From: an uncultured bacterium
GTDB lineage: Bacteria; Hydrothermota; Tepidihabitantia; Tepidihabitantales; Tepidihabitantaceae
Length of the DNA stretch: 64,000 nt
Reading direction: 5' to 3'
Assembly (NCBI GenBank): GCA_964626075.1
Contig: CAZVDD010000013.1
Coordinates: 31,291-95,290, forward strand
Shown piece after piece: positions 689 to 61,420 of this stretch. The number at the start of each line of letters is the position of its first letter. The stretch's first letter is position 1. A program made the translations under genes and the position numbers. Below the pieces are notes generated by a model that was not told the DNA's origin, ran no database searches, and saw only the letters and a program-made list of their open reading frames with translations.

Positions 689-1305
689 GTAAACTCAAAT
701 TTTCTTCCCCGCTTCTGCGCCCCGGCGCTACCGCACTGCTGCTTTTCTGCTCTTGCGCACTTCTCTTCTTCTCTGCCTGCGACAACATTTTCTCCCCTTC
801 TGACTTTGAACCCACCGGCACCCCATTTTACCTCAACCCCGGCATCAACACCATCGCCATAACCGGCAACCGCCGCCTGTTCAGCGACCAAGGTCTTTAC
901 ACTCTGGAACTTATCTGCCAGACCACTAATACCAGCCCTCTTCTTGACACCCTTCCCGGCGGCTTACTCTTCACTTCAATTAAAAACTCCACCCAGCATG
1001 TTATCGTTCTTAAAGACCATTTTATCACTGCTCACCCCTCCCGGACAAGCGTCGTCGTCGGCGTGTTCTGCTGTAACCGCTATCGCCAGATCCCGGCAGA
1101 AGACGACACATTTCGCCTCGGACCATTGACTGACAACCCGGACCTCCAGCGGCTGGCGCAACTGGTGAAAAACAAAGACATCTCGCAAAACCTCGGCATG
1201 GTACAACGCGCGGTCTGGATGGTTACCGACTCCACCGGTTTAACCCAGCCTTACATCGACTCAATCAACGCTTTACCCCCGAAATCTGATGGTAACCATC
1301 ATTGA
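685..1305 (+). CDS. Lipoprotein, paralog B (206 aa). Tandem duplicate of the preceding gene.
   Basis: Signal peptide LLFFSAC with lipobox Cys. C-terminal AVWMVTDSTGLTQ motif matches paralog A. Confidence 0.55.
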   Translation: MSKLKFSSPLLRPGATALLLFCSCALLFFSACDNIFSPSDFEPTGTPFYLNPGINTIAITGNRRLFSDQGLYTLELICQTTNTSPLLDTLPGGLLFTSIKNSTQHVIVLKDHFITAHPSRTSVVVGVFCCNRYRQIPAEDDTFRLGPLTDNPDLQRLAQLVKNKDISQNLGMVQRAVWMVTDSTGLTQPYIDSINALPPKSDGNHH

Positions 1306-2422
1306 GGTCAAGACCGCGCAACAGTTAAAGCGGTTTATCGATTTGCCTTTTGCCCTGTATTGGGGAAAACACGGGCTCGGTGCAAAGTACCCCTACTGGG
1401 TACCGCCGCTCAAGAAGGAGGTGGCGGCAATACTTGATTTTCAGCATCACCCATTCTGGGAACACGCCATCGGCACCCTGTTCCTCGCCGAAAAAGCCGG
1501 TAAGACGGTTGGCAGAATCTCGGCGCAGATTGACCACAACTACAACAAACTCTGGGAAGAGAAACTGGGTTCGTTTGGCTTTTTTGAATGTGTTGACGAC
1601 CAGGAGGTGGCGAATGCGCTTTTTGATGCCGCCGCGCAATGGGTCAAGAGCCGCGGGATGAACCGGCTGCGCGGACCAATGAGCCCTTCCTCGAACGACG
1701 AATGGGGCTTTCTCTTTGAAGGCTTTGACCAGCCGCCGGTTTTGATGATGCCCTACAACCCGCCTTACTACCTACGCCTCGCCGAAAACTATGGGTTCGT
1801 AAAGGCGAAAGATCTCCTCGCCTTTATTAAATATGCCCACACCCCGATGCCCGAACGGCTTGTTGCGCTTGCCGAACGCCTCCGCGCCAACCCCAACATC
1901 ACGGTCCGGCCAATTAATATGAAAAAACTGCCTTCGGAGATGGCGATCGTCCGGGAACTGTACAACACCTCCTGGGAGAAAAACTGGGGTTTCTCTCCGA
2001 TGACCGACAAAGAGATGAGCCTCCTTGCCCAAAATTTGAAAACATTTGCCGACCCCAATATGGTGCTTTTTGCCTTCTATCAGGGAAAACCCGCTGGACT
2101 TGCCATCACTTTACCCGATATGAATCAGGTTTTAAAGCATCTAAACGGTAAACTGGGACTTATTGGAATGGTAAAATTCCTCTACTACCGCCGGAAAATC
2201 ACCGGCGCCCGCGCCATCGTGTTCGGGTTCAAGCCCGAGTACCGCCGACTTGGATTACCGGTTCTTCTATTCTACGAAACCGAAAAATATATGCGGCAAA
2301 AGGGCTATCAGTGGTGCGAACTTTCCTGGAACCTTGAAGACAACTGGCTCATCAACGAGTTTGACCGCGAACTGGGCGGAGAAGTGTACAAAAAATACCG
2401 GGTGGTTGAAAAGCCGGTATAA
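1289..2422 (+). CDS. GNAT-fold N-acyltransferase-like protein (377 aa) of the conserved Bacteroidetes/FCB-type family (FemAB/BioF2-like fold).
   Basis: N-terminus KRFIDLPFALYWG..YWVPPL and GFFECVDD motifs recalled from a widely conserved ~380 aa family annotated as N-acetyltransferase. ATG at 1289 overlaps the previous gene by 17 nt. Confidence 0.5.
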   Translation: MVTIIEVKTAQQLKRFIDLPFALYWGKHGLGAKYPYWVPPLKKEVAAILDFQHHPFWEHAIGTLFLAEKAGKTVGRISAQIDHNYNKLWEEKLGSFGFFECVDDQEVANALFDAAAQWVKSRGMNRLRGPMSPSSNDEWGFLFEGFDQPPVLMMPYNPPYYLRLAENYGFVKAKDLLAFIKYAHTPMPERLVALAERLRANPNITVRPINMKKLPSEMAIVRELYNTSWEKNWGFSPMTDKEMSLLAQNLKTFADPNMVLFAFYQGKPAGLAITLPDMNQVLKHLNGKLGLIGMVKFLYYRRKITGARAIVFGFKPEYRRLGLPVLLFYETEKYMRQKGYQWCELSWNLEDNWLINEFDRELGGEVYKKYRVVEKPV

Positions 2423-11927: not shown

Positions 11928-13150
11928 ACCGCTCTTGTCTTAGCTCCGGTCATCAGTTTTGTCATTTGCGCCAGCCAGCGCCGGATACGGGCACCGGCGA
12001 CTTTAAGCCTGTTTTCCGGCGCGACCAGCGCAAACCGGACAAACCCTTCACCCTGCTTACCAAAACCAGCCCCGGGCGCGGCAACAATTCGGCATTTTTC
12101 AATTAACTGAAGGCAAAAGGCGTAGGAGCGGGAACCGCGATAAGTTTCCCGCCACCAGTCAGGCAGTTTTGCCCATACATAAAATGTACCTTGGGGTAAA
12201 GTAATATCCCAGCAGCCCTGTGCCAGTTCGGTAACAAAAACATCCCGGCGTTGCTGATACCGGCGCCGCACCGTTGCCGCGATTTTGCTCCCCCTGTTGA
12301 GGGCAAAAACCGCGGCGTCTTGCACCGCGCCAAACGGTCCGGAGTCAACATTCTCTTTTATCTTCAGCAATGCACCGAGCAGCTCTTTATTGCCCACCGC
12401 CACCCCAAGCCGCCAGCCCGGAATTGAAAATGTTTTGGAAAGCGAGTGTAACTCCAGTGCACAATTCTTGCTCTCTGGAACTTGAAGGATGGAAGGCGGC
12501 GGTTCGTTAAAATAGATTTCGGAGTAAACATTGTCATTAACGATGTAGAACCCATATTTCAATGCCAGGGCAACAAGTTCCTGATAGAAAACAAGAGGTG
12601 CAATGGCGGCCGTCGGATTGTTAGGAAAATTAAGGCAAAGCAGTTTCAGCCGGGGGGCAATTCGGCTGATGAAATCAAGGTCGGGAAGAAACCCATTCTT
12701 TTCCTCCAGGGGAACAAGCACCAGCGACGCGCCGCACAGTCGACTCTGATTGACATAAACGGGGTAACCCGGGTCGCAGACCGCAACCGTATCACCTCGG
12801 TCGCACAACGCCCAGAGCAGATGTGCCGCACCCTCTTTAGAACCCAAGAGCACCACCACCTCTTTTTCCGGTTCGAGGTTTACCCCAAACCTTCGCTGAT
12901 ACCAGCGGGCAAAGGCGCGGCGTAAGGTCAGTTTACCGGCATAAGTGGGATAACGGTGATTTTCCGAAACTTTTAACGCGCGGCCGAGTACCTTAAGTAA
13001 CGCGGGTGCGGGCTCAAGGTCCGGATTGCCTTCACCCAGGTCGATTAAACCGCCTTTTGCCCGTGCTTTAAACCTGTTCAGTTCTGAAAAGAGATAGGGG
13101 GGAAGAAGCGTTAACCTTTGCGCAAAAGGGGGCAATCGGCGCTGGCTCAT
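11918..13150 (-). CDS. dapL: Class I/II aminotransferase, LL-diaminopimelate aminotransferase-like (410 aa).
   Basis: LPPYLFSEL N-terminal motif and SKTFSIPGWRLG PLP-lysine region resemble DapL. Adjacent to aspartate kinase. Confidence 0.5.
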   Translation of the reverse strand: MSQRRLPPFAQRLTLLPPYLFSELNRFKARAKGGLIDLGEGNPDLEPAPALLKVLGRALKVSENHRYPTYAGKLTLRRAFARWYQRRFGVNLEPEKEVVVLLGSKEGAAHLLWALCDRGDTVAVCDPGYPVYVNQSRLCGASLVLVPLEEKNGFLPDLDFISRIAPRLKLLCLNFPNNPTAAIAPLVFYQELVALALKYGFYIVNDNVYSEIYFNEPPPSILQVPESKNCALELHSLSKTFSIPGWRLGVAVGNKELLGALLKIKENVDSGPFGAVQDAAVFALNRGSKIAATVRRRYQQRRDVFVTELAQGCWDITLPQGTFYVWAKLPDWWRETYRGSRSYAFCLQLIEKCRIVAAPGAGFGKQGEGFVRFALVAPENRLKVAGARIRRWLAQMTKLMTGAKTRAVWR

Positions 13151-14307
13151 CGCCGGGCTAAAAATCGCTCAATTCTTTCGAGCGCCCGCTGGATGTTCTC
13201 GATAGAGTTGGCGTAACTGAACCGCAGAAACCCATCGCCAAACTTGCCAAAGCAGGTGCCCGCAAGACACGCTACCCCCTCCTCTTCGAGCAGTCTATCC
13301 GCGAGAACCTTACAGTCAATTCCGGTGCCTTCGATATTGGGAAAGACATAAAAAGCGCCCTGCGGTTTAATACAACGAAAACCCGGAAGCCGGTTCAAGC
13401 CCTCGACAATAAGGTCCCGCCGCCGCTTAAACTCCGCCACCATTTGGTCAACAGGTTCACGGGGACCGTTAAGCGCCGCCAAACAGGCACGTTGAATAAA
13501 TGTCGCTGTGCAGGAGTTGATGTTGGTCTCAATCCGCGCCATCTTTTCTGCCAGTTCCGCCGGCATTATACCATAACCGATGCGCCAGCCGGTCATCGCA
13601 AAGGTCTTGGAAAAACCATCGAGAATAATCAAACGGCGTCCCGCCTCGGGAAACTGAGCAATCGACTCAAATTGTCCGTCATAGACAATCTCCGAGTAGA
13701 TTTCGTCGGCGAGAATCCAGACATTGTGTCTTATCGCAACTTCGGCAATCAAGCGCAAATCTTCCCGGGTTAACACTCCACCGGTCGGGTTTGCCGGCGA
13801 GTTGATAATAATCATCTTCGTTCGGGAATTGACCAATGACACCAACTCTTCAACATCCAGCCGAAAACCCCGTTCTTCCCGGAGCCGGATCGGTACCGGT
13901 CTTCCGCCCATATAGTCAATCATTGATTCATAGATAGGAAAACCGGGATTGGGATAAATCACTTCATCCCCGGTCTCAACCAGTGCCATAATCGCAAATG
14001 ACATTACCGGTTTTCCGCCAGGCGTGATTACAACCTGCTCCGGGAAAAACTTCGTTCCCCGCAACCGCCCCGCATATTTCGCAATTGCATCCCGAAGCTC
14101 GCCTAAACCCGCCGAAGGGCAGTAATGGGTCCAGCCCTCATCCAGCGCCTGTTTTGCCGCTTCAACAATGTGTTTGGGTGTCGGGAAGTCAGGTTCGCCA
14201 ATCTCCAGATGAATCACCGCCATTTTGCATTCCAGCTCCTTTGCCCGACACAGACAGTCAAAAGCGGTCTCGGTTCCCAGCCGACTCATCCGCTCTGCCA
14301 GTCTCAT
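13147..14307 (-). CDS. Class I aminotransferase, aspartate aminotransferase-like (386 aa).
   Basis: IHLEIGEPDFPTP and SKTFAMTGWRIGY class-I aminotransferase motifs. Confidence 0.75.
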   Translation of the reverse strand: MRLAERMSRLGTETAFDCLCRAKELECKMAVIHLEIGEPDFPTPKHIVEAAKQALDEGWTHYCPSAGLGELRDAIAKYAGRLRGTKFFPEQVVITPGGKPVMSFAIMALVETGDEVIYPNPGFPIYESMIDYMGGRPVPIRLREERGFRLDVEELVSLVNSRTKMIIINSPANPTGGVLTREDLRLIAEVAIRHNVWILADEIYSEIVYDGQFESIAQFPEAGRRLIILDGFSKTFAMTGWRIGYGIMPAELAEKMARIETNINSCTATFIQRACLAALNGPREPVDQMVAEFKRRRDLIVEGLNRLPGFRCIKPQGAFYVFPNIEGTGIDCKVLADRLLEEEGVACLAGTCFGKFGDGFLRFSYANSIENIQRALERIERFLARR

Positions 14308-16424
14308 TTCTTACCCCCGGGCTTCCGTCTGCTCGCTGCCTTCCGCTTTGGGGTTGGGGTAGAAACCTTGACGCCTCCATCTTTCCCTTTTGCCCTATCA
14401 TACAGCTCCTTTGCCTTGGCGGCGATGTGCTCAGCCGAAACCTCAAACTCCCACATCAACTCCCAGGGCTGGCCTGACTCTCCAAACCGGTCTTTAACAC
14501 CAACCGAACCGAACGCCAGGGGACGACCGTAGAGTTCCGGAGCGGTGTGCAGGACATAAGAAACCCGGTGCGCCAGACCACCAATCTGATGCTCCTCTGC
14601 GGTCAAAACCACACCGGTCTCCAGTGCCGCCTGAATCAAAAACTTTTGATTGGGAATCGTCTCATTCGGATGGGTGCTGGGCGACTTTAAGGTGTGTAAA
14701 TTGATAACCCGGGTTTCAATTCCGAACTCCTCTTTCAAAATCCACGCCGCCCGCAACGCCTCCGGTACCATTGGTCCGCACGCCACAATCGTCAAATGCT
14801 CGCCTTCGTTCTCGTAACTGTCCAAAGTCTTGACCTCAAACGCATCAAGAAATCTGTCCTTCTCCCCCCGGTATCGATAAACATTAGGCATCCCCCAGAT
14901 AAAAGGCGTATCCGGTGTGGTAACAACCGGTGTTGCCTCGCGCGCAAACCGAATATACTTTGGTCCCTGAATACTTAAAAGCAAATGTTCGGTTGCCTTT
15001 TTGGTTTCAAGCGCATCGGCGGGTACTGACACATGCATATTGGGTAACCCACATATCTGGAACAAATCTTCCAGTGCCTGATGTGTCGCACCATCAGGAC
15101 CAACCGAAACCCCACCGTGCGCGCCGGCAATCAAAACATTGAAATTACCATAGCAAACGGTCGTACGCAACTGGTCAAGATTTCGCCCCGCAGCAAAAAC
15201 GCCGTATGTCCCGAAAACCGGCAGTTTCCCTTCCTTTGCCAGCCCTGCCGCCACATTCGTGCCCGACTGCTCGGCAATCCCAACCGAAATCCACCGTTCC
15301 ATTCGCTCTGGATACTTCTCATAAAACTTTGAAATAGCGATTGACCCCGAGATGTCGGCACCAATACAGCATACCCTTTTATCGTCACCCAGTGCTTCCA
15401 GCGCCTCGCCGAACCCGAAACGCGTTGCCTTCATTTCCACCTTCATTTTCTCCTGCTGATTCCAGAAGTAGTCCCGGGAAAACTTTGGCACCTTTGCAGT
15501 CAACTTGGCGGTCGCCTCAGCCTGATATTCCGCAGCCCTTTTCAGCAGTTCCTCGTAATCAATCCGGTAATGAAGACCAAGCTCTTCCAATCCCTTAACC
15601 ATCTCCGCCTTGTTCGGGGCTTTTCCATGCCAGCCGGCGACATTCTCCATAAACGAAACGCCTTTACCCTTGGTCGTGTGGCAGATAATCACCGTCGGCT
15701 GCCCTTTGTGCTTTGCCGCTTTATCAAATGCCGCCAGAATCTGGTGCATGTTGTGGCCATCGATCTCAATCACATTCCAACCAAACGACCGGTACTTTTC
15801 GGCAATCGGGTCAATCGGCATTACATCCTTTACCCAACCGTCAATCTGCAGCCGATTCTTATCCAGAATACAACAAAGGTTATCCAGTTTATACGCACCG
15901 GCTTCCATTATCGCTTCCCAGATCTGTCCCTCCTGATGCTCACCATCACCGGTGATACAGTAAACCCGATAATCCTTCTTATCCAACCGGGCAGCAAGAC
16001 AAATCCCCACCGCCACCGAAAGCCCCTGCCCCAGCGAACCAGAAGAAATCTCAACCCCGGGCAGTTTGAGCCAGTGCGGATGGCCCTGATAAGGAGCGTA
16101 CAGCTTCCTCAACCGCACCACATCCTCAACTGGAAAATAGCCCGCCATTGCCAGTCCTAAGTAAAGCGCCGGCGCCTTATGCCCGGCGGACCAGATAATA
16201 CGGTCCCGGTTTTCCCAGTAAGGATTTTCCGGGTCGTGCCGGGCAACATGAAGATACAGTGCCGCAGTGACATCCATAATAGAAAGCGTCCCGCCTGAAT
16301 GACCCGAACCCGCAGCACAAAGGGCAATAAGGTTATAACCGCGCATTGTATTCGCCGCCTGAATCAACTCCGCCACAGAGTAACTCTTCCGCACCGCATT
16401 GCTCTTTGAGTCAACTATCGGCAT
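14304..16424 (-). CDS. tkt: Transketolase (706 aa). N- and C-terminal split-type subunits fused by a helical linker, plus a ~35 aa lysine-rich C-terminal tail.
   Basis: N-terminal TPP-binding motifs (GHSGG, GDGE..EG). A C-terminal pyrimidine-binding/transketolase C domain follows a KAEMVKGLEELG linker. Tail KDGGVKVSTPTPKRKAASRRKPGGKK. Stop TGA overlaps the aspC-like ATG (ATGA). Confidence 0.88.
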   Translation of the reverse strand: MPIVDSKSNAVRKSYSVAELIQAANTMRGYNLIALCAAGSGHSGGTLSIMDVTAALYLHVARHDPENPYWENRDRIIWSAGHKAPALYLGLAMAGYFPVEDVVRLRKLYAPYQGHPHWLKLPGVEISSGSLGQGLSVAVGICLAARLDKKDYRVYCITGDGEHQEGQIWEAIMEAGAYKLDNLCCILDKNRLQIDGWVKDVMPIDPIAEKYRSFGWNVIEIDGHNMHQILAAFDKAAKHKGQPTVIICHTTKGKGVSFMENVAGWHGKAPNKAEMVKGLEELGLHYRIDYEELLKRAAEYQAEATAKLTAKVPKFSRDYFWNQQEKMKVEMKATRFGFGEALEALGDDKRVCCIGADISGSIAISKFYEKYPERMERWISVGIAEQSGTNVAAGLAKEGKLPVFGTYGVFAAGRNLDQLRTTVCYGNFNVLIAGAHGGVSVGPDGATHQALEDLFQICGLPNMHVSVPADALETKKATEHLLLSIQGPKYIRFAREATPVVTTPDTPFIWGMPNVYRYRGEKDRFLDAFEVKTLDSYENEGEHLTIVACGPMVPEALRAAWILKEEFGIETRVINLHTLKSPSTHPNETIPNQKFLIQAALETGVVLTAEEHQIGGLAHRVSYVLHTAPELYGRPLAFGSVGVKDRFGESGQPWELMWEFEVSAEHIAAKAKELYDRAKGKDGGVKVSTPTPKRKAASRRKPGGKK

Positions 16425-16432
16425 AAACTCTC

Positions 16433-17083
16433 CTATCCTTTTGGTATCCCCTGATAATCCTCGTAGAACTTTTTAATCCCAGCATCAGTCAGAGGATGCC
16501 TAACCATCTTCAAAAGCACATCATAAGGGACCGTTGCTATATGCGCGCCTGCCCGCATCGACTCAACCACATGCAAAGGATGCCTGATACTTGCGGCAAT
16601 CACCTGGGTCGAAAAGTCGTAGTAATCAATCATTGCTGCAATATCCCGAACCAGTTCCATTCCTTCGTGCGAGATGTCGTCCAGTCGTCCTACAAACGGC
16701 GAAACAAAAGTTGCCCCGGCGCGGCACGCTAAAAGCGCCTGATTCGGTGAAAATATCAAAGTGACATTTGTCATTATACCTTTACGCGTTAGCCGGTAAA
16801 CCGCCTGCAACCCCTCGATTCCCATAGGAACTTTCACCGTAACCTTCTTCGGGTCCAACTTTGCCCACTCCTCACCCTCCTTTACCATACCATCCGCATC
16901 TGGTGATATCGCCTCAACCGACACCGGGCCATCCACGACCCTCAGAATCTCTTCCACACATTCCCTAAAAGACTTACCGGTCTTTTTCACCAGTGTTGGA
17001 TTGGTTGTTACTCCATCAATGATGCCCCAGCTGGCAACATCCTTAATCTCCTTGATATCTGCGGAATCAATAAATATCTTCAT
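16433..17083 (-). CDS. tal: Transaldolase / fructose-6-phosphate aldolase family protein (216 aa, short Tal type).
   Basis: [20 protein letters not shown] motif. Start reassigned to the ATG at 17083, preceded by GGAGGAT Shine-Dalgarno (cctcc at 17093-17097). The ORF track's 287 aa extension has no support. Confidence 0.85.
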
Positions 17084-17135
17084 AATGGTTATCCTCCGTT
17101 GACTGAAAATGGAAAGACTCTCGCCAAGGAATTTC

Positions 17136-17163
17136 AGTATAACAACAAAAACCAAAAAGGCAA
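17136..17163 (-). promoter_or_regulatory. Candidate promoter of the tal-tkt-...-DUF4416 operon (minus strand: TTGCCT, 16 nt, TATACT).
   Basis: Hexamers read on the reverse complement. Lies ~55 nt upstream of the tal ATG, which has a Shine-Dalgarno. Confidence 0.35.
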
Positions 17164-17178
17164 GTATTACTACTGGGC

Positions 17179-17760
17179 TTACCTGGTAATGCCGGCACCG
17201 TTGCGGAGCAGGTTGAGAGAGTTGCCCGCTTGTAGTACTGAGCGTACTTCCCCAACCTGCTCCGCTGCCCTGCTCATTAACCTTTCCACCCCGCAACTTA
17301 ACAGTGACGGCGTGTTGAGAACTTTATCCGTCAGCGCCAGGACACGCACCGCGGCACTGGAACGGCTAAGCACGCGCACACTGGGCGGAAACAAAACGAG
17401 GGTAAAGGAAAGACCGAGCCATACCACCGCCAGGCCCTTTGTCAATCCGAAAATACCACCAAGGAAGGTGTCGAGATACTCAAGGCGGCTCCAGTCCAGC
17501 AGTTTTAAAAGCGCCCGTCGGACAAAACGAAGACCCAGTCCGGTGGCAGCAATAAGAATAACGAAGGCTAAAAAAACGGATGCGGGATAGTTGTGCAGAA
17601 ATCGGTCGAACACGGGGGAGACGACCGTTTGATTTCTCAGGCCTATGACAAGTCCAAGCGAAGGGAAAAGTAACGAGCAGAACCTCCTTATCAGGCCGGA
17701 ATAGTAACCACTAATCATAAAACCAAGGACAAATAGAACAATAATCACATCCACCGCCAT
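17179..17760 (-). CDS. cvpA: CvpA family membrane protein (193 aa).
   Basis: Four predicted TM helices. N-terminus [26 protein letters not shown] resembles CvpA. Confidence 0.55.
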
Positions 17761-18094: not shown

Positions 18095-18514
18095 TCAAAA
18101 TGACAATAGTTTTAATCCGGTCTCCGGTTCAAGTTGTCGGCTAAGTTTCTTATCACCCGGAAAGATGGAGATCTCACAGGTAACACCTACCCGACCGGCA
18201 AACAGATGGCCCCCATAGGTTGTCATCTGTCTATCGCTAAGAACGATATGACAGTGACAAACCGGCTGTTTTCCATCCCAGGCGACATTACCCAGAAGGG
18301 ATACTATCTCAAACTCGCCTTTTAGCTGACGCCGGCGGTAACTCTTTTTACTGATATTATAGTAACCCAATTCAAAGTCGTATCCAGCACCGAGTCCACT
18401 GATAACCCCGGATTTAATCTTAACCCGCCGGGCAAACTCCACAAGAGTCGTCAATATCTCTTCTCCTTGCAAAAGTCTTAACTGATAGAACTGACTATTT
18501 TTAATCCATTTCAT
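18095..18514 (-). CDS. PPC (DUF296) domain protein (~139 aa).
   Basis: CHCHIVLS..GGHL..G.V..T.EI motif typical of the PPC/DUF296 fold. Start taken at MKWIKN (18514). The upstream K/R-rich residues in the ORF track are the alternate frame of the topA tail. Confidence 0.6.
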   Translation of the reverse strand: MKWIKNSQFYQLRLLQGEEILTTLVEFARRVKIKSGVISGLGAGYDFELGYYNISKKSYRRRQLKGEFEIVSLLGNVAWDGKQPVCHCHIVLSDRQMTTYGGHLFAGRVGVTCEISIFPGDKKLSRQLEPETGLKLLSF

Positions 18515-20615
18515 CTTTCCCCTCTTTTTTCTTGCTCTTTTTCGTTTTTTTAACAAAACGACACTGGGGATACCCGGAACAGGCGATGAATTTCCCAAAC
18601 CGGCTTTGCCGCTCCACCAAAGGCTTACCGCACTTCGGACATGATTCCGCTAGAATTTTAGGCGCCTCTTTAGGTGGACGTTTTATAAAGTCACATTGGG
18701 GATACCCGGAACAGGCGATGAATTTCCCAAACCGGCTCTGCCGCTCCACCAAAGGCTTGCCGCACTTCGGACAGATGTCTGCTAACGGTTTCTCTTCTCC
18801 CTTTTTCACATAGTCACATTCCGGATATTTTGAACAGGATATGAATTTGCCAAACCTGCCCCAGCGTTCAACCAGCACCGCTCCACACTTCGGGCAACTT
18901 TCGTTTAGCTCGCGGGTCAAACCATCTTTAATTTCGGCTGCCTCCGCCTCTGCCCGGTCCAGGTCTTCTTTAAATGGCTGGTAAAAACGCGCCACAACCT
19001 CGCGCCAATTTAATTCCCCCTCTTCAACACCGTCCAGTTCCTTTTCCATCTCGCGAGTGAACCCGATTTCAAATATGTTGGCAAACCGAGGAATTAAAAT
19101 GTCGTTTACAACCGTCCCTAACTCGGTTGGGACCAGTTTTCCCTGTTTCCTCTCAACATACCCACGCTCAACCAGAGTCGGAACGATTGTCGCATAAGTT
19201 GAAGGTCTGCCAATCCCGTTAACTTCTAACCGCTTAATCAAACTTGCTTCAGTGTAACGGGGCGGCGGCTGGGTGAACTTCTGTTCCGGGATAAACTCTT
19301 TCATCTCAACCGGTTCGCCCTTCTGTAATTCGGGCAATGAACTTTCCTTATCCGGTTCGCCGTATATCCGCTCAAAACCCTCAAAAACCCGTCTTACCGC
19401 CTCAGTCCTGAAGGTGTAATCACCCCCTTCAACTAAAACCTCGGTCAAATTGTACAACGCATCCGCCATTTGGCTGGCAACAAACCGGCGGAAAATCAAC
19501 TCGTAAACCTTAAACTCATCAGGGGTTAGATACGGTTTAACCCGCTCTGGGGTCAAATCTAGACGGGTCGGCCTTATCGCTTCATGTGCACCCTGGGTAC
19601 CCTTGCGGTCCGGATAATGCCGCGGCTTATCAGGAAGAAACCGCTCTCCATATGTTTGTGAAATTAAATTACGCACAGCAGTTACCACATCGTCCGCTAC
19701 TCGAAATGAATCGGTGCGGGGATATGTAATTAACCCGACAGTTTCCTCCTTCAAATCTACCCCTTCAAACAGCCTCTGGGCGATACGCATCGTCCGCGCT
19801 GAACCGAACTTAAACAACTGTCCCGTCTCCTTTAAAAGTGTCGCAGTCACAAAAGGCGGTAGTGGTCTCTTATGCCGTTCCCGCTGCTTAACCACGCTTA
19901 CCGTGAAACGGGTTCCCTGGCACCCCTGCCGCACCCCCTCAACTTCGGACCGGTCCTTCAACCGGAAAGTCTGATTCCTGATTTTTATCAGCTGACACTC
20001 AAAACGTTCTCCGCTCGCCCGGGCAAAAATCGCCCGAACAACCCAGAACTCCTCCGGTTTAAAACTTGCAATCTCTCTTTCCCGCTCCACCAGAATCCGA
20101 AGAGCAACGGTTTGCACCCGACCCGCCGACTTCCCTGCTCGCACTGTTCGCCACAGCAAGGGTGAAACAAGATAACCTACAAGCCGATCCAGCACCCGAC
20201 GTGCTCTATGGGCATCAACCTTCCGCAGATCAATTTCGCCCGGTGAATTAAAACCAGCCTCAATACCCCGGGGCGTAATCTCATAAAACAAAACCCGTTT
20301 TATATTCGCCCCATTCTTTATCTCCTGTGCAACCGAATAGGCAATCGCCTCGCCTTCTCGGTCCGGGTCACAACCCAGGTAAACTGTTTTTGCCTGTTTT
20401 GCCGCCGTTTTTAACTCGTTGATGACCGGCGCCTTCCCTCTTATTCTTATATACTCTGGTTCAAATCCATTTTCGATGTCAACCCCGAGTCGGGACTTTG
20501 GCAAATCCGCGATATGTCCCCGGGAGGAAAGAACCTTTACCCTGCCCTTCAGCAATCTGCTGATCGTATGAGCTTTGGTTGGAGACTCGACAATAAGTAA
20601 ATCTTTTTTGCTCAT
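18501..20615 (-). CDS. topA: DNA topoisomerase I (704 aa) with three C-terminal C4 zinc ribbons and a lysine-rich tail.
   Basis: TOPRIM N-terminus LLIVESPTKAHTI. Three CPKCG...C..YP.C repeats. Tail KKTKKSKKKEGKDEMD. Confidence 0.93.
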   Translation of the reverse strand: MSKKDLLIVESPTKAHTISRLLKGRVKVLSSRGHIADLPKSRLGVDIENGFEPEYIRIRGKAPVINELKTAAKQAKTVYLGCDPDREGEAIAYSVAQEIKNGANIKRVLFYEITPRGIEAGFNSPGEIDLRKVDAHRARRVLDRLVGYLVSPLLWRTVRAGKSAGRVQTVALRILVEREREIASFKPEEFWVVRAIFARASGERFECQLIKIRNQTFRLKDRSEVEGVRQGCQGTRFTVSVVKQRERHKRPLPPFVTATLLKETGQLFKFGSARTMRIAQRLFEGVDLKEETVGLITYPRTDSFRVADDVVTAVRNLISQTYGERFLPDKPRHYPDRKGTQGAHEAIRPTRLDLTPERVKPYLTPDEFKVYELIFRRFVASQMADALYNLTEVLVEGGDYTFRTEAVRRVFEGFERIYGEPDKESSLPELQKGEPVEMKEFIPEQKFTQPPPRYTEASLIKRLEVNGIGRPSTYATIVPTLVERGYVERKQGKLVPTELGTVVNDILIPRFANIFEIGFTREMEKELDGVEEGELNWREVVARFYQPFKEDLDRAEAEAAEIKDGLTRELNESCPKCGAVLVERWGRFGKFISCSKYPECDYVKKGEEKPLADICPKCGKPLVERQSRFGKFIACSGYPQCDFIKRPPKEAPKILAESCPKCGKPLVERQSRFGKFIACSGYPQCRFVKKTKKSKKKEGKDEMD
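18561..18772 (-). repeat. Near-identical tandem direct repeat inside topA (two ~80 nt copies, period 132 nt, 3 mismatches), encoding zinc-ribbon repeats 2 and 3.
   Basis: Copies at 18561-18640 and 18693-18772 compared directly. The encoded peptides CPKCGKPLVERQSRFGKFIACSGYPQC are identical. Confidence 0.85.
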
Positions 20616-27358: not shown

Positions 27359-28615
27359 TTACTCAAGAAAGAAGATGTTGCGTTTGGCGCAAATCTCTTT
27401 GAGCACCTTGGGCCAGACCGTAACCGATACCTCGCCCAGACTTGCGGTCCTAAGCAGATACATATAGGTCCGCGACTGGCCAATACCACCACCGATAGAA
27501 AGGGGCACCCGATCGTTCATAATCGCCTGATGATAGGGCAACTCAAGGAAATGCTCCTGTTTCGCCATCTTCAACTGCTGAACAAGCGTCTCTTTCGTCA
27601 CACGGATACCCATTGAGGTCAACTCGTGTCGTCTTCTTGTTACCGGATTCCAAACCAGGATGTCGCCGTTCATACCGTGGGTCGGCTTTCCGGTCCAATG
27701 GGAAGTGTCGGTAATCCAGTCGTCGTAGTCGGCTGCCCGCATCTCATGGGGCAACCCATCAGCCAGCGGATAGCCAATACCGATGATGAAAACCGCCGGC
27801 GCATACTCCTGAAGCAGTTTGGTCTCCCGCTGCTTTCGTGGTAAGTCCGGGTACATCTCAAGAATCTCCTCGGCGTGGATGAAGGTCAACTCTTCAGGAA
27901 TGGGCGGATACTTTGTCGTGCGCAACTCCGGAAACTGCTCCTGAACCAGGTGAGATGCTCCCACAATCACCTTCCAGATTTTCCTTACGACATCCTTAAG
28001 ATAATCAAGGTTCCGGTCCTGCGCAGTAATAACCTTCTCCCAGTCCCACTGGTCAACATAAGAGGAGTGGTCGTGGTCCAGGAAATAATCTTTCCGCACT
28101 GCTCGCATATCGGTGCAAATCCCTTCACCTACCTTGCACCCAAACTGCGCCAGCGCCAACCGCTTCCACTTGGTCGCTGCCTGAACAATCTGAGCGTTGA
28201 TTCGTGGGGAAATGCCCAGTCCACAGGGAAATTCGACCGGAGTCCTGGAACCATCCCGGTCCAGATAGTCGTTGACCCCTGACTCCCGCTCCACAATCAA
28301 GGGCACCTGAACCATATGCAGGTTCAGTTCCCGGCACAGGTTCTTCTCAATGTACTCCTTGATCATAAAGAGCGCGTCCATCCGTTTTAGCGGCGGTAGA
28401 ATCGGCTCGTAATCGGTGGGTAAAATTTTCTCCACCTCTTCATAGGTGCCGACACCTGGACCGGCTAAATCGGCTCGCTTCTTATCCAGAAGCGTCGGTG
28501 CTGCGCTCTTGAGCGAGGCTTTCTTCGGTATCTTTTTTGCCACTTTTTTCTTAGTGACTTTTTTCACCGTCTTGCGTGCGGTCTTCTTCACCGCCTTTTT
28601 CTGCTTTTTCTTCAT
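27359..28615 (-). CDS. asnA: Aspartate--ammonia ligase (asparagine synthetase A) with a ~75 aa N-terminal extension, including a 40 aa lysine-rich histone-H1-like tail.
   Basis: Core aligns to E. coli AsnA (SSYVDQWDWE, GDILVWNP, SMGIRV, IGGGIGQSR). ATG at 28615 preceded by AAAGGAG Shine-Dalgarno. N-terminus MKKKQKKAVKKTARKTVKKVTKKKVAKKIPKK. Confidence 0.85.
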   Translation of the reverse strand: MKKKQKKAVKKTARKTVKKVTKKKVAKKIPKKASLKSAAPTLLDKKRADLAGPGVGTYEEVEKILPTDYEPILPPLKRMDALFMIKEYIEKNLCRELNLHMVQVPLIVERESGVNDYLDRDGSRTPVEFPCGLGISPRINAQIVQAATKWKRLALAQFGCKVGEGICTDMRAVRKDYFLDHDHSSYVDQWDWEKVITAQDRNLDYLKDVVRKIWKVIVGASHLVQEQFPELRTTKYPPIPEELTFIHAEEILEMYPDLPRKQRETKLLQEYAPAVFIIGIGYPLADGLPHEMRAADYDDWITDTSHWTGKPTHGMNGDILVWNPVTRRRHELTSMGIRVTKETLVQQLKMAKQEHFLELPYHQAIMNDRVPLSIGGGIGQSRTYMYLLRTASLGEVSVTVWPKVLKEICAKRNIFFLE

Positions 28616-28775
28616 CTGCTACACTCCTTTTTGTTAATCTACTTCTTACATCATATTTAAAGGAAAATCGGCATATTAAGGATAACAACCCCGACTTAAT
28701 CTGTCAAGGATTAATGACACCCGAAACGCCGTTCGATGCTCAATTTACCACTCCAAAATTGATTAAGGATTTTTG

Positions 28776-39689: not shown

Positions 39690-40325
39690 CTATTTGCGCA
39701 CCGCTGCCTTTTCAAACTCTGCTATCGCCTCATCGGAAAGGGGATGATTACCCAGCGCTAACAGCACCTCATAGGGCAGGGTTAAATGGTGGGCACCAGC
39801 GATAAACGCTCGCAGCGCCTCTTCCGGCGACTTAACACTTGCCGCCACAAGTTCCACCGGCCTGCCACTTGCCTGAATCACCGCTGCCATTTCGGCAATC
39901 AGTTTTATCCCGTCGCCCAAAAGCCTGGTTGCCCGGTTGACATAAGGGATGACATAAGTGCACCCGGCTTCAATCGCAAGGAGCGTTTGGTGCCCGCTGA
40001 ACACCGCGGTCGCGGCACAGGGGATTTCCGGTGCAAGGCGGGTGACGAGCGCCAGGTTTTCGGTTGTCGCCGGAATCTTCAACACAATCTTGTCCGGCGC
40101 AATCTGGTAAAACTCCCTTGCCTCCTGCTCCTTTTCCCGCAAAGCCTTGCCGGTCAACTGATAAAATACCGGACCGGGCACAATCTGACACAACCTTTTA
40201 ATCACCGTATCAGGTGCCGCCGCCACCTTTGATAGTAGGATAGGATTGGTCGTGCACCCGCGCACGAACCCCAGTTTTACTGCCTGCGTTACCTCATCAA
40301 CAACCGCACTGTCAATGAACAGCAT
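39690..40325 (-). CDS. Second transaldolase / fructose-6-phosphate aldolase family protein (211 aa).
   Basis: MLFIDSAVVDEV..GCTTNP motif. Start reassigned to the ATG at 40325 with AGGAGGG Shine-Dalgarno. Translationally coupled to the upstream ribokinase gene. Confidence 0.8.
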   Translation of the reverse strand: MLFIDSAVVDEVTQAVKLGFVRGCTTNPILLSKVAAAPDTVIKRLCQIVPGPVFYQLTGKALREKEQEAREFYQIAPDKIVLKIPATTENLALVTRLAPEIPCAATAVFSGHQTLLAIEAGCTYVIPYVNRATRLLGDGIKLIAEMAAVIQASGRPVELVAASVKSPEEALRAFIAGAHHLTLPYEVLLALGNHPLSDEAIAEFEKAAVRK

Positions 40326-40326
40326 C

Positions 40327-41247
40327 TTAACCCTCCTGTTCCTTGAGCAACCGCTCAACCTCTTCCCTTCGGGGCATAGACGGTTCTGCCCCGAGTACCG
40401 TGCAGGCGACTGCACCGCACGCATTGGCAAACCGCACCGCCTCATCCAGACTCCGACCCTCGGCGATACTTACCACCAGACCGGCGCGAAAGGCGTCACC
40501 GGCACCGGTCGAATCTATCGCCTTAACCTTAAACGGTGGAAACCGCCTTTTGCCATTTTCGTCAAACACCAGCGCGCCATCTGCGCCCACCGAAATAATT
40601 ACCGCCCGGCGTCCGGATTTAAGTTCGGCTTTTGCCCAGTCATCAATCGCCATCCCGCCTGCCAGTTCTGCCGCCTCAATCTCGTTCGGAACGATGTAAT
40701 CAATTGGCTGGCTGATGGGCAGTTCAATCTTGTGAAACGGTGCCGGGTCAAGAAACACCAGACACCCGGCATTGCGGGCAATGGTCGCCGCCTGAAACGA
40801 AACCCGGTGCGGAATCTCAAACTGCAGCATCAGGGCATCCGCCGCCTCAATTTCCGGCTTTACCATCGCTATCTGTTCCTCACCCAGGCGGAGATTGGCA
40901 CCGGCAACACCGATAATCGCATTCTGCCCGGCACTGTCAATCATCGGGCAGGCAACACCCGTTGGCACTTCGGGGTCAACAGCGACGAAATCGGTCCTCA
41001 TCCCTTCCTCTTTCATCTTCTTCAAAAACAACTCGCCGAAGTAGTCCATTCCCACCTTGCCCACCATCACAACATCGGCCCCCAGCCGATGCGCCGCAAC
41101 CGCCTGATTAAAACCCTTGCCGCCTAAAAAAAGTCCAAACCCATCACCGGCCATTGACTCGCCTGGTCGGGGCAACCGCTTGACCCGAAACACCATATCG
41201 GTCATAAAAGAACCAACAACGCAGATTTTAACCCGCTTATTTTTCAT
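40327..41247 (-). CDS. rbsK: Ribokinase-like PfkB-family sugar kinase (306 aa).
   Basis: N-terminal GSFMTDMVFRV..PGES and C-terminal DSTGAGDAFRAGL...ANACGA.CTV.GA.PS motifs, as in RbsK. Confidence 0.75.
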   Translation of the reverse strand: MKNKRVKICVVGSFMTDMVFRVKRLPRPGESMAGDGFGLFLGGKGFNQAVAAHRLGADVVMVGKVGMDYFGELFLKKMKEEGMRTDFVAVDPEVPTGVACPMIDSAGQNAIIGVAGANLRLGEEQIAMVKPEIEAADALMLQFEIPHRVSFQAATIARNAGCLVFLDPAPFHKIELPISQPIDYIVPNEIEAAELAGGMAIDDWAKAELKSGRRAVIISVGADGALVFDENGKRRFPPFKVKAIDSTGAGDAFRAGLVVSIAEGRSLDEAVRFANACGAVACTVLGAEPSMPRREEVERLLKEQEG

Positions 41248-44367: not shown

Positions 44368-44368
44368 C

Positions 44369-47010: not shown

Positions 47011-47013
47011 CGC

Positions 47014-49025: not shown

Positions 49026-49030
49026 CGTCT

Positions 49031-55061: not shown

Positions 55062-55067
55062 CCGTTT

Positions 55068-56411: not shown

Positions 56412-56414
56412 CGG

Positions 56415-57818: not shown

Positions 57819-57993
57819 AAGTTCCTCCCTTATATTTTATCAACTAAAAGCATAAGAACCTTAAACCTTATTGTCAAACAAGGAGCGCGCGACCGGTTAA
57901 ATCCCACCTCGCAAAGGGCGAAAAAAGTGCCGCAGTTTGGTTTTGGCTTTCCGGGTTTTGCTCTATCCGGCAAGAAGTTGTGCCTGTCCAAGG

Positions 57994-58022
57994 TTGACCG
58001 TTTATGGATTTTCCGGTATTAT
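57994..58022 (+). promoter_or_regulatory. Leaderless-type promoter (TTGACC, 17 nt, TATTAT, 7 nt, ATG at 58030).
   Basis: Read directly. Supports the 58030 start rather than the ORF-track 57937. Confidence 0.5.
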
Positions 58023-58029
58023 AATTAAA

Positions 58030-59529: not shown

Positions 59530-59544
59530 TCTGAAAATTCGCTG

Positions 59545-59573
59545 TTGACAATTCGCTTGTCCCGTTTTAGAAT
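59545..59573 (+). promoter_or_regulatory. sigma70-like promoter of yebC (TTGACA, 17 nt, TAGAAT), with a ~40 nt leader and AGGAGG Shine-Dalgarno at 59606-11.
   Basis: Read directly. Confidence 0.5.
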
Positions 59574-61416: not shown

Positions 61417-61420
61417 AACT

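What the first reader, a model, noticed from the sequence alone, without database searches (positions are those of the whole stretch)
14304..14412. Lysine-rich basic tails on metabolic enzymes: Tkt C-terminus and AsnA N-terminus
Transketolase ends with KDGGVKVSTPTPKRKAASRRKPGGKK. AsnA begins with MKKKQKKAVKKTARKTVKKVTKKKVAKKIPKK (see 28496-28615). TopA ends KKTKKSKKKEGK. Histone-H1-like tails on TopA are known in some bacteria, but they are not known on Tkt or AsnA. They suggest nucleoid, RNA or polyanion tethering of metabolic enzymes in this lineage. The tkt tail sits across the aspC-like start, so it cannot be trimmed without breaking the coupling.
Basis: seen in the sequence. Interest (0 to 1): 0.5.

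Follow-up and report, generated by a model that had tools for sequence, protein, structure and literature searches.

The report
Lysine-rich tails on two metabolic enzymes
In one branch of the uncultured bacterial phylum WOR-3, transketolase and asparagine synthetase A each carry a short, disordered, strongly positive tail resembling that of histone H1; selection keeps its lysine content but not its sequence, and it probably anchors these enzymes to DNA or another negatively charged polymer.

Summary
Transketolase (Tkt, 14304-16424, minus strand) ends in a 27-residue tail of net charge +9. AsnA (27359-28615, minus strand) starts with about 43 extra residues of net charge about +19, translated from an ATG behind a canonical AAGGAG ribosome-binding site. 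Neither tail is an artefact: the identical 706-residue Tkt occurs on 10 independently assembled contigs.

Every member of one monophyletic WOR-3 subclade has a Tkt tail (window plus 21 loci; 21-55 residues, +7 to +25). Sister lineages end 1-15 residues after the last helix. AsnA shows the same pattern. Tail sequence turns over fast, but composition holds (K 27%, A 19%, P 11%, almost no hydrophobic residues). Lysine stays near 90% of the basic residues even in 68-69% GC genomes, and third-codon-position GC (GC3) follows the genome. So selection acts on the protein.

AlphaFold2 predicts both tails disordered. The tails are selective: among about 75 genes of this genome and several hundred ORFs in relatives, only Tkt and AsnA carry them.

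The TopA "tail" is a 12-residue patch followed by DEMD and is unremarkable. The claim that gene overlap protects the Tkt tail is not supported.

Most likely function: a histone-H1/PAKKA-type anchor for polyanions (nucleoid, RNA or polyphosphate). This is inferred, not shown.

The parts
14304..16424 (-). Transketolase gene (706 aa).
   Evidence: Pfam Transketolase_N, Transket_pyr and Transketolase_C. NCBIfam NF004559 transketolase scores 626 bits against a cut-off of 488.
14307..14387 (-). Tkt C-terminal polybasic tail: 27 aa, GKDGGVKVSTPTPKRKAASRRKPGGKK, 7 K + 3 R, 1 D, net charge +9.
   Evidence: It lies beyond the last conserved helix (residues 664-678). AlphaFold2 pLDDT is 35-42 and the region is coil. 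The homologous position carries 21-55 aa basic tails in all 22 clade members and 1-15 aa in the outgroups.
14304..14307 (-). ATGA overlap of the Tkt stop (TGA) with the aminotransferase start (ATG).
   Evidence: Read from the sequence. The overlap is conserved only in L002 and L007. Other relatives have a gap of -1 to +24 nt.
13147..14307 (-). Aspartate-aminotransferase-like class I/II aminotransferase (386 aa), with no terminal extension here.
   Evidence: Pfam Aminotran_1_2. Best NCBIfam hits are aspartate aminotransferase models, all below their cut-offs.
27359..28615 (-). Aspartate-ammonia ligase (AsnA) gene, 418 aa.
   Evidence: Pfam PF03590, E = 1e-79, residues 81-326. TIGR00669 scores 286 bits, just under its cut-off of 292.8.
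28487..28615 (-). AsnA N-terminal polybasic tail: residues 1-43, with the K-rich core in residues 1-32 (17 K, 1 R, no acidic residue).
   Evidence: Tail-less orthologues begin M..DKKADLAGPG, which is residue ~44 here. AlphaFold2 gives pLDDT about 32 and coil for residues 1-37. The 14 orthologue sequences that cluster together in the NJ tree order carry 37-45 aa (+14 to +19) ahead of the conserved core, except P0127 with 15 aa.
28624..28629 (-). Shine-Dalgarno sequence AAGGAG, 8 nt upstream of the AsnA ATG (28615).
   Evidence: Read from the sequence. There is no ATG, GTG or TTG at the canonical N-terminus (LLDKK is encoded CTT CTG GAT AAG AAG). A promoter-like TTGACA-17-TATCCT lies at 28707-28679.
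18501..20615 (-). DNA topoisomerase I (TopA), 704 aa, with three C-terminal zinc ribbons.
   Evidence: Pfam Toprim, Topoisom_bac and Zn_ribbon_Top1 x3.
18516..18551 (-). TopA short basic patch KKTKKSKKKEGK, followed by DEMD. It is not an H1-like tail. The TopA 3' end just downstream of the patch overlaps the start of the next gene.
   Evidence: relatives end in 10-20 aa of mixed K/E sequence.
18095..18514 (-). PCC/DUF296-domain gene (139 aa, start MKWIKNS). It overlaps the TopA 3' end by 14 nt. The apparent K-rich N-terminus of the longer ORF 18095..18598 is the TopA basic patch read in another frame.
   Evidence: Pfam PF03479. The gene is called as 139-140 aa in L001, L076 and L080.

Best explanation
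The two tails are intrinsically disordered, polycationic low-complexity appendages of the histone-H1 C-terminal-domain type. This is the same kind as the PAKKA/KPAA repeats of mycobacterial Hlp and Ku, and of Pseudomonas AlgP and PhaF. They arose in the ancestor of one WOR-3 subclade and have been kept on two soluble enzymes, transketolase and AsnA, by selection on lysine content and net charge rather than on sequence.

The most likely mechanism is non-specific, multivalent electrostatic binding to a cellular polyanion. That partner could be nucleoid DNA, ribosomal or transfer RNA, or polyphosphate. Binding would tether, and so localise or concentrate, the enzyme, as the KPAA domain of PhaF tethers PHA granules to the nucleoid.

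Shown here: the tails are real, translated, clade-wide, compositionally conserved, lysine-specific, predicted disordered and restricted to very few proteins.

Inferred: that they bind a polyanion, which polyanion, and what this does for metabolism.
For: 1. The tails are real and translated.
- The identical 706-aa Tkt is on 10 contigs from independent samples.
- AsnA has AAGGAG 8 nt upstream of its ATG and no alternative start at the canonical N-terminus.

2. The tails are clade-wide.
- In an NJ tree of Tkt cores, all 22 tail-bearing sequences (tails 21-55 aa, +7 to +25) form one clade. The 31 outgroup sequences have 1-15 residues.
- 37 of the 120 best 90%-identity clusters carry tails, essentially all those at 73% identity or more.
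- For AsnA, 14 sequences adjacent in tree order carry the tail.
- Both tails occur in the same genomes: this window; FWPU01000340.1; the QZM1.Bin.120 MAG (CBFGJT contigs); and apparently the 66,950-bp contig JBBISL010000009.1, where the AsnA placement rests only on matching contig length.

3. Selection acts on composition, not sequence.
- Window and L002 are 92% identical in Tkt, but their tails barely align and differ by a 15-nt indel.
- Pooled tail composition is K 27, A 19, P 11, R 9, T 8, G 7%, with L+I about 1% and no aromatic residues.

4. Lysine is kept against mutational bias. K/(K+R) is 0.93 in tails of the 68-69% GC genomes, where the cores drop to 0.32-0.51.

5. Selection is at protein level, not nucleotide level. 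Tail GC3 tracks core GC3 (r = 0.78) and tail GC tracks gene GC (r = 0.74).

6. Some relatives have true pentapeptide repeats. L019 has 6.6 copies of a 15-nt unit encoding PAAKK.

7. Both tails are predicted disordered. pLDDT is about 32 for AsnA residues 1-37 and 35-42 for Tkt residues 683-706, with no secondary structure.

8. The tails are selective.
- Of 59 selected ORFs in the window, plus 20 kb flanking it in the same genome, only Tkt, AsnA and the TopA patch score. YebC also scores, but inside a conserved domain.
- In 385 ORFs of clade loci and in the AsnA neighbourhoods the same holds.
- RuvA, RuvB, RuvC, ScpB and LeuRS have no tail.

9. There are precedents.
- PAKKA tails of Ku, Hlp and HU bind DNA (PMC3553676).
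- The KPAA domains of AlgP and PhaF associate with polyphosphate granules and the nucleoid and position granules (PMC9239181).
- K-rich low-complexity regions in prokaryotes are concentrated in DNA- and RNA-binding proteins (PMC6821194).
Against: - No binding or localisation data exist. The organism is uncultured.
- The window's own Tkt tail is one of the weakest in the clade (27 aa, +9, no repeats). On composition alone it is not significant within the window.
- The tails sit on enzymes with no known need for nucleic acid, while bona fide DNA-handling proteins in the same window lack them. Simple nucleoid affinity is therefore not an obvious benefit.
- One close AsnA relative (P0127, 93% identity, on a 1,235-bp contig) has only about 11 extra residues, so a long tail may be dispensable.
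- The proteome sample is small: about 84 kb of this genome plus largely syntenic loci. The selectivity claim could weaken with whole genomes.
Confidence: 0.5

Rival explanations
1. The tails act on the enzyme itself rather than on a cellular scaffold. They could serve as solubility or anti-aggregation 'entropic bristles'. Alternatively they could fold back on the acidic enzyme surface to stabilise the dimer or to regulate activity.
For: - The Tkt core is acidic, with net charge about -10, so a +7 to +25 tail could interact with it.
- Both enzymes belong to families that are homodimers in characterised examples (established knowledge for Tkt and AsnA).
- Many clade members come from hot springs (record titles; PMC12542636).
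Against: - Core net charge is the same in the tail clade (mean -10) and in tail-less outgroups (mean -11), so there is no co-evolution of core and tail.
- The AsnA core is nearly neutral (-2 against -1).
- Clade members also come from lake water and sediments (L008, L011), so thermophily is not a common denominator.
- Solubility tags need not be lysine-specific, yet lysine is kept against GC pressure.
Confidence: 0.2
2. The tails are near-neutral low-complexity expansions produced by replication slippage in AAG-rich sequence. They are tolerated at termini and have no function.
For: - Sequence turns over rapidly, length varies from 21 to 55 aa, and L019 has 15-nt tandem repeats.
- P0127 carries a much shorter AsnA tail.
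- Similar tails arose independently on Tkt in an Eisenbacteria MAG (L045) and on AsnA in P0229.
Against: - Every one of 22 diverged lineages retains a tail. Lys codons are one substitution away from stop codons, so neutral tails should often be truncated.
- Composition is held constant while GC3 drifts from 0.37 to 0.94.
- Lysine is retained in genomes of up to 69% GC.
- Only two gene families out of about 75 genes in this genome are affected. Slippage without selection would not be so selective.
Confidence: 0.15
3. The function lies in the nucleotide sequence. The purine-rich tail-coding DNA would provide the ribosome-binding region and translational coupling for the downstream aminotransferase (Tkt). 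For AsnA it would provide an unstructured, A-rich 5' coding leader that boosts initiation.
For: - In the window the Tkt stop overlaps the aminotransferase start (ATGA), and a GGGGG stretch lies 9 nt upstream of that start, inside the tail codons.
- The AsnA tail lies at the 5' end of its ORF.
Against: - Most relatives have a separate AGGAGG site after the Tkt stop and no overlap, yet keep the tail.
- Tail GC ranges from 41% to 72% and follows the genome, so the DNA is not kept A-rich or unstructured. The L019 repeat unit GCCCGCCGCCAAGAA is 67% GC.
- The amino-acid composition, not the nucleotide composition, is what stays constant.
Confidence: 0.05
4. The tails are artefacts: a frameshift, a missed stop codon or a mis-called start.
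For: None found.
Against: - The identical Tkt protein is on 10 independent contigs.
- Tails are present in dozens of independent assemblies.
- AsnA has a strong Shine-Dalgarno sequence and no alternative start.
- Indels between relatives are multiples of three.
Confidence: 0.01

Closest known systems
PAKKA-type lysine/alanine/proline low-complexity tails of bacterial DNA-binding proteins: mycobacterial Hlp/HupB, M. smegmatis Ku, Deinococcus HU, actinobacterial TopA (PMC3553676, PMC7398561)
   Same: - Terminal position and K/A/P-dominated composition.
- Pentapeptide repeats in some members; PAAKK in L019 is the same kind of unit.
- Rapid sequence turnover and variable length.
- Resemblance to the histone H1 C-terminal domain.
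   Different: - Those tails are attached to proteins whose core already binds DNA, and they modulate that binding. Here the cores are a thiamine-diphosphate enzyme of the pentose-phosphate pathway and an amino-acid ligase.
- The window's own copies are short (27 and 43 aa) and are not repetitive at DNA level.
- The lineage is WOR-3, not Actinobacteria or Deinococcus.
PhaF and AlgP of Pseudomonas: a KPAA-repeat H1-like C-terminal domain that links a non-DNA cargo to the nucleoid or to polyphosphate granules (PMC9239181, PMC3574117, PMC7590123)
   Same: A polycationic H1-like domain is used as an addressing or tethering module on a protein whose other part has a non-DNA job (phasin on PHA granules; polyphosphate granule spacing). 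This is the closest mechanistic precedent for tethering a cytoplasmic component.
   Different: - The PhaF and AlgP domains are much longer (about 150 aa, net charge +35 to +55) and regularly repetitive.
- Their cargo is a storage granule, not a soluble enzyme.
- There is no sequence homology beyond composition.
N-terminal lysine-rich appended domains of eukaryotic class IIb aminoacyl-tRNA synthetases (LysRS, AspRS, AsnRS) (PMC6213541, PMC8319005)
   Same: - By established structural knowledge, AsnA shares the class II catalytic fold of AspRS and AsnRS.
- In both cases a disordered K-rich N-terminal extension, absent from most prokaryotic homologues, is appended to that fold.
- In the synthetases the extension binds tRNA non-specifically.
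   Different: - AsnA has no anticodon-binding domain and no tRNA substrate (Pfam finds only PF03590).
- AlphaFold2 predicts no helix in the tail.
- The same clade put a similar tail on the unrelated Tkt, which argues for a general polyanion anchor rather than a tRNA-specific device.
Canonical tail-less Tkt and AsnA of neighbouring lineages (other WOR-3 clades, Zixibacteria, Ignavibacteria, KSB1)
   Same: The cores are 65-75% (Tkt) and 76-83% (AsnA) identical to the window proteins, and the tkt-aminotransferase synteny is shared.
   Different: - These Tkt proteins end 1-15 residues after the last helix (...KELYDIKKKG).
- These AsnA proteins start M..DKKADLAGPG.
- One separate group of AsnA sequences, including several that sources name WOR-3, has an 11-15 aa weakly basic N-terminus (+3 to +7). 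This may be the precursor state.

Membership tests
Histone-H1-CTD-like / PAKKA-KPAA lysine-rich low-complexity tails | Composition dominated by K, A and P (plus T/S), with very few acidic, hydrophobic or aromatic residues. | tested here: met
   Pooled Tkt tails are K 27, A 19, P 11, R 9, T 8, G 7%, with D+E about 6%, L+I about 1% and no F/W/Y/C. The window Tkt tail has 7 K, 3 R, 3 P and 1 D in 27 aa. The window AsnA tail has 17 K in 32 aa and no acidic residue.
Histone-H1-CTD-like / PAKKA-KPAA lysine-rich low-complexity tails | Short tandem peptide repeats (PAKKA or KPAA units) encoded by tandem DNA repeats. | tested here: inconclusive
   Met in relatives: L019 has a 15-nt unit x6.6 encoding PAAKK, and KKPAA-type runs occur in L012, L014, L017 and P0029. 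Not met in the window: Tandem Repeats Finder reports nothing in either tail.
Histone-H1-CTD-like / PAKKA-KPAA lysine-rich low-complexity tails | Terminal position and intrinsic disorder. | tested here: met
   AlphaFold2 gives pLDDT about 32 and coil for AsnA residues 1-37, and pLDDT 35-42 and coil for Tkt residues 683-706. This is a prediction only.
Histone-H1-CTD-like / PAKKA-KPAA lysine-rich low-complexity tails | Fast sequence and length turnover with conserved charge. | tested here: met
   Tails are 21-55 aa with net charge +7 to +25 across the clade. Tails barely align between proteins that are 92% identical overall.
Histone-H1-CTD-like / PAKKA-KPAA lysine-rich low-complexity tails | Binds DNA or another polyanion non-specifically. 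| not testable with these tools
   Needs EMSA or anisotropy measurements with full-length and tail-deleted proteins.
Histone-H1-CTD-like / PAKKA-KPAA lysine-rich low-complexity tails | Attached to a nucleic-acid-binding core (true of the classical bacterial examples). | tested here: not met
   The cores are transketolase and AsnA only. This is the point of novelty. PhaF is a precedent for a non-DNA core.
Actinobacterial-type TopA lysine-repeat C-terminal domain | A long lysine-repeat C-terminal domain that replaces or extends the zinc-ribbon region and confers processivity. | tested here: not met
   The window TopA has three Zn_ribbon_Top1 domains followed by only KKTKKSKKKEGKDEMD. Relatives end in 10-20 aa of mixed K/E sequence.
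Eukaryote-type class IIb aaRS N-terminal tRNA-binding appended domain (considered for AsnA) | A K-rich N-terminal extension placed ahead of an anticodon-binding domain and a class II catalytic core that acts on tRNA. | tested here: not met
   Only PF03590 (AsnA) is found and there is no anticodon-binding domain. The tail is predicted to be coil, not an amphipathic helix.
Transketolase (NCBIfam NF004559) | Full-length match above the curated cut-off. | tested here: met
   626 bits against a cut-off of 488, covering residues 5-676. The tail lies outside the model.
Aspartate-ammonia ligase AsnA (PF03590 / TIGR00669) | Match to the family model. | tested here: met
   PF03590 scores 268 bits against a cut-off of 27. 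The TIGR00669 equivalog scores 286, marginally below its cut-off of 292.8, so this is a divergent subfamily about 375 aa long without the tail.

The most novel reading that the evidence does not exclude
The tails are address tags of a lineage-specific spatial organisation of central metabolism. Under this reading, transketolase and AsnA are parked on a polyanionic scaffold: the nucleoid, ribosomes or RNA, or polyphosphate granules. In sister WOR-3 clades the adjacent aspartate aminotransferase may do the same through its own basic N-terminal peptide. Because lysine rather than arginine is specifically retained, the charge might be switchable by lysine acetylation. That would be a histone-tail-like regulatory layer on bacterial metabolic enzymes.
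Probability: 0.2. Interest if true: 0.7.

Novelty: new variant of a known kind. Interest (0 to 1): 0.45.

Why it matters
Lysine-rich H1-like tails in bacteria are known as modulators of DNA-binding proteins, and in PhaF and AlgP as tethers for storage granules. Here they are stably maintained for a whole clade's history on two soluble central-metabolism enzymes and on almost nothing else. That would extend the principle to enzyme localisation in bacteria, a field with few clear sequence-encoded examples.

The case is testable. There are two enzymes, natural tail-less orthologues at about 70-80% identity to serve as controls, and a graded natural series of tail lengths and charges (+7 to +25).

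It also matters for annotation and proteomics. Trypsin destroys such tails, and gene callers may mis-place starts.

Tried and rejected
1. Mis-called AsnA start. Rejected: AAGGAG lies 8 nt upstream of the ATG, and there is no start codon at the canonical N-terminus.

2. Frameshift or assembly artefact in tkt. Rejected: the identical protein is on 10 contigs, and tails occur in dozens of assemblies.

3. Proteome-wide basic tails in this lineage. Rejected for the sample available: the window, 20 kb of flanks, 21 Tkt loci and 4 AsnA loci.

4. Charge compensation between an unusually acidic core and the tail. Rejected: core charge is the same with and without a tail.

5. Nucleotide-level function (ribosome-binding site, coupling, A-rich leader). 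Disfavoured: GC and GC3 of the tails follow the genome, and most relatives do not overlap the downstream gene.

6. Gene-boundary shift, meaning the Tkt tail was captured from the basic N-terminal extension that the downstream aminotransferase carries in sister clades. No trace of that extension's motif (C-x3-CG[LM]P or KRIKKI) is found in any frame of the clade's tkt 3' ends. The extension looks instead like a duplication of the aminotransferase's own N-terminal helix. The idea is unsupported, though low-complexity sequence would erase any signal quickly.

7. TopA as a third H1-like case. Rejected.

8. Search of 1.84 billion representatives at 50% identity, to ask how often Tkt carries such tails. 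The whole family collapsed into one tail-less representative. None of the 150 best hits has a polybasic C-terminus, which says tails are rare but adds little.

9. The published WOR-3 genome survey (PMC12542636) mentions transketolase but not tails, histones or polyphosphate.

Full report
**What is in the window**

On the minus strand, ORF 14304..16424 encodes a 706-aa transketolase (Tkt). The Pfam N-terminal, pyrimidine-binding and C-terminal domains cover residues 22-667, and NCBIfam NF004559 scores 626 bits. Its TGA stop overlaps the ATG of a class I/II aminotransferase gene (13147..14307), giving ATGA at 14304-14307.

ORF 27359..28615 encodes a 418-aa aspartate-ammonia ligase, AsnA (PF03590, residues 81-326). 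It starts MKKKQKKAVKKTARKTVKKVTKKKVAKKIPKK.

TopA (18501..20615) has three zinc ribbons and ends KKTKKSKKKEGKDEMD.

**More than chance?**

The 59 non-overlapping ORFs of the window contain 5.0% K and 7.3% R.

- The AsnA tail has 17 K in 32 residues. The binomial probability is about 2e-14 per position, far beyond any multiple-testing correction.
- The Tkt tail has 10 K/R in 27 residues, with P about 1e-3. It would not stand out on composition alone.

The Tkt tail is made robust by comparison with relatives.

**Are the tails translated and real?**

- The AsnA ATG at 28615 is preceded by AAGGAG with an 8-nt spacer and by a promoter-like TTGACA-17-TATCCT.
- The canonical N-terminus of the family corresponds to residue ~44 here. 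It is encoded CTT CTG GAT AAG AAG, which offers no start codon.
- The identical 706-aa Tkt, tail included, is encoded on 10 contigs from independent samples in JGI and Logan.
- Between close relatives, tail-coding DNA differs by in-frame indels.

**Lineage and phylogenetic distribution**

Record titles of the closest genomes place the window in candidate division WOR-3. The best match is JBBISL010000009.1, with 92% Tkt identity.

Tkt:
- Among the 120 best Tkt clusters, 37 carry C-terminal extensions of about 20-60 residues rich in K, A, P and T. These are essentially all clusters at 73% identity or more.
- The other clusters are 671-675 aa long and end ...KELYDIKKKG.
- In a neighbour-joining tree of Tkt cores, the 22 tail-bearing sequences form one clade (window plus 21 loci, including the complete chromosome CP070680.1). 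Their tails are 21-55 aa with net charge +7 to +25.
- The 31 outgroup sequences include other WOR-3 clades, Zixibacteria, Ignavibacteria, KSB1 and Acidobacteriota. They have 1-15 residues after the last helix.
- One separate lineage, an Eisenbacteria MAG (L045), has an independently acquired 54-aa tail that is richer in arginine.

AsnA behaves the same way:
- 14 sequences adjacent in tree order carry 37-45 residues (+14 to +19) ahead of the conserved core. One exception is P0127, with 15.
- One separate group, including several sequences that sources name WOR-3, has an 11-15 aa weakly basic N-terminus.
- All others start M..DKKADLAGPG.
- One unrelated sequence (P0229) gained a 31-aa basic N-terminus on its own.

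Both tails co-occur in the same genomes: this window, FWPU01000340.1, and the QZM1.Bin.120 MAG. They apparently also co-occur on the 66,950-bp contig JBBISL010000009.1. There the AsnA placement rests only on a matching contig length.

**What selection preserves**

- Sequence is not conserved. Window and L002 are 92% identical over Tkt, but their tails barely align.
- Composition is conserved. Pooled tails are K 27%, A 19%, P 11%, R 9%, T 8%, G 7%. L+I is about 1% and there are no aromatic residues or cysteine.
- Lysine is specifically retained. Across genomes of 49-69% GC, K/(K+R) in the tail stays high, and is 0.93 at 68-69% GC. In the same proteins' cores it falls to 0.32-0.51.
- Nucleotide composition is free to drift. 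Tail GC3 tracks core GC3 (r = 0.78) and tail GC tracks gene GC (r = 0.74).

Selection therefore acts on the peptide, not on the DNA or mRNA. In some relatives the tail is a true tandem repeat: L019 has 6.6 copies of a 15-nt unit encoding PAAKK. The window's tails are not repetitive. AlphaFold2, run with alignments of 30 homologues, predicts AsnA residues 1-37 and Tkt residues 683-706 as coil with pLDDT 32-42, next to well-modelled cores.

**Selectivity**

I annotated the window and scanned every ORF for basic segments. The criterion was at least 8 K/R including at least 5 K, and at most 1 D/E, in 20 residues.

- Among real genes, only Tkt, AsnA, the TopA patch and a conserved-domain segment of YebC score. 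One further hit is the spurious alternative frame of the TopA end.
- Ten kb on either side of the window in the same genome add no case.
- In 385 ORFs of the clade's Tkt loci, and in four AsnA neighbourhoods, again only Tkt and AsnA carry tails.
- Neighbours have none. These include transaldolase, two aminotransferases, aspartate kinase, LeuRS, ScpB, RuvA, RuvB, RuvC and GMP synthase.

This is not a proteome-wide habit of the lineage. DNA-handling proteins are not preferentially tagged.

**The gene-overlap argument**

Only the stop codon overlaps the aminotransferase start. The ATGA overlap is shared by L002 and L007. Other clade members have gaps of -1 to +24 nt, often with their own AGGAGG site after the Tkt stop. 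The tail persists whatever the junction looks like, and a nonsense mutation anywhere in it would leave the downstream ORF intact. The overlap therefore does not explain tail retention.

**Mechanism**

The closest known objects are the histone-H1-like K/A/P low-complexity tails of bacterial DNA-binding proteins. These are the PAKKA repeats of mycobacterial Hlp, M. smegmatis Ku and Deinococcus HU, and the lysine repeats of actinobacterial TopA. They bind DNA non-specifically and are described as having evolved repeatedly (PMC3553676, PMC7398561, PMC6821194).

The best mechanistic precedent is the KPAA domain shared by Pseudomonas PhaF and AlgP. It links a non-DNA cargo (PHA granules, polyphosphate granules) to the nucleoid or polyphosphate, and its removal disturbs granule positioning (PMC9239181).

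By analogy, I propose that the Tkt and AsnA tails are polyanion anchors that localise these enzymes. I cannot tell which polyanion is involved. DNA, RNA or ribosomes, polyphosphate and anionic membranes are all compatible with the data.

For AsnA there is a second parallel. Eukaryotic class IIb aminoacyl-tRNA synthetases share AsnA's catalytic fold (established knowledge). They carry disordered lysine-rich N-terminal tRNA-binding extensions that are absent from prokaryotic homologues (PMC6213541, PMC8319005). However, AsnA has no anticodon-binding domain, and the same clade put the same kind of tail on the unrelated Tkt.

**Rivals**

- Intramolecular role (solubility, stability or autoregulation). 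This is possible but gains no support from core charge, which is identical with and without tails.
- Neutral slippage-driven expansion. It explains the variability. It does not explain retention in all 22 lineages, lysine-specificity against GC pressure, or restriction to two gene families.
- Nucleotide-level role. Disfavoured.
- Artefact. Excluded.

**Novelty**

Full-text searches found no report of lysine-rich tails on transketolase or AsnA. The recent WOR-3 genome survey does not mention them. None of the 150 best Tkt-family representatives at 50% clustering has a polybasic C-terminus.

I rate this as a new variant of a known kind: a familiar module, the H1-like polycationic tail, on unexpected hosts, conserved across a clade of an uncultured phylum. 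Interest is moderate. The comparative signal is clean and the hypothesis is directly testable, but the function is inferred and the effect on metabolism is unknown.

Noticed in passing
L018 8034-9257; also L021, L025, L028, L029, L030, L031, L033, L041, L053, L065 (the gene immediately downstream of tkt): In sister WOR-3 clades whose Tkt has no tail, the aspartate-aminotransferase-like gene after tkt carries a conserved basic N-terminal extension of about 20 aa, MPxKKAKRIKKIKxC[TS]LACGLPES. It has a C-x3-CG motif and, in many cases, a recognisable Shine-Dalgarno sequence just upstream. It resembles a duplication of the enzyme's own N-terminal helix (KLAERMSRLGTET). So the same gene junction carries a basic peptide on one gene or the other, depending on the clade.
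   Followed up: partly
window 18095-18598 and 18501-18514: The TopA 3' end overlaps the start of a PCC/DUF296-domain gene (PF03479, 139 aa, ATG at 18514) by 14 nt. The topA-PCC pairing is conserved in relatives (L001, L076, L077, L079). The longer ORF 18095..18598 has a false K-rich N-terminus, which is the TopA basic patch read in another frame.
   Followed up: partly
L045 (Eisenbacteria MAG JAFGJU010000138.1), Tkt C-terminus; protein P0229 (AsnA): Polybasic tails were acquired independently outside the WOR-3 clade. L045 has a 54-aa tail of net charge +24 with more R than K on Tkt. P0229 has a 31-aa basic N-terminus on AsnA.
   Followed up: partly
protein P0127 (AsnA, 93% identical to the window protein, on a 1,235-bp Logan contig): A very close relative has only about 11 extra N-terminal residues (MRKKAVKKKTSLLDKK...). 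This is either a natural deletion inside the tail or an assembly collapse of low-complexity sequence.
   Followed up: no
L037 and L074 (WOR-3), Tkt C-termini: These Tkt proteins have short basic ends (KKSRGRKTKKS; RRRRKKK; net charge +7) in a WOR-3 lineage outside the tail clade. P0087 and P0090 are similar. They may be intermediate or parallel states.
   Followed up: no
window 41897-50032: A BatA-D-like operon lies on the minus strand: MoxR AAA ATPase, DUF58, DUF4381, two VWA proteins (one fused to TPR), BatD and a TPR/SH3 protein.
   Followed up: no
window 16433-17296 and 39690-40445: There are two transaldolase/FSA-family paralogues. The one next to tkt is called as 216 aa in relatives, so the 287-aa longest ORF here over-extends its N-terminus. 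The second paralogue sits beside a pfkB-family kinase.
   Followed up: no
window 1-54000 versus 54000-64000: GC skew on the plus strand is strongly negative (about -0.15 to -0.3) while genes run on the minus strand. It flattens to about 0 after 54 kb. Beyond about 58 kb the genes run on the plus strand (FlgD_ig-domain protein, YebC, RuvC, RuvA, RuvB). In the relative L078, dnaA lies 2 kb from asnA, but not in this window.
   Followed up: no
window 1289-2422: A 377-aa protein with a weak GNAT acetyltransferase match. It is relevant only to the speculative idea that lysine-specific tails could be regulated by acetylation.
   Followed up: no
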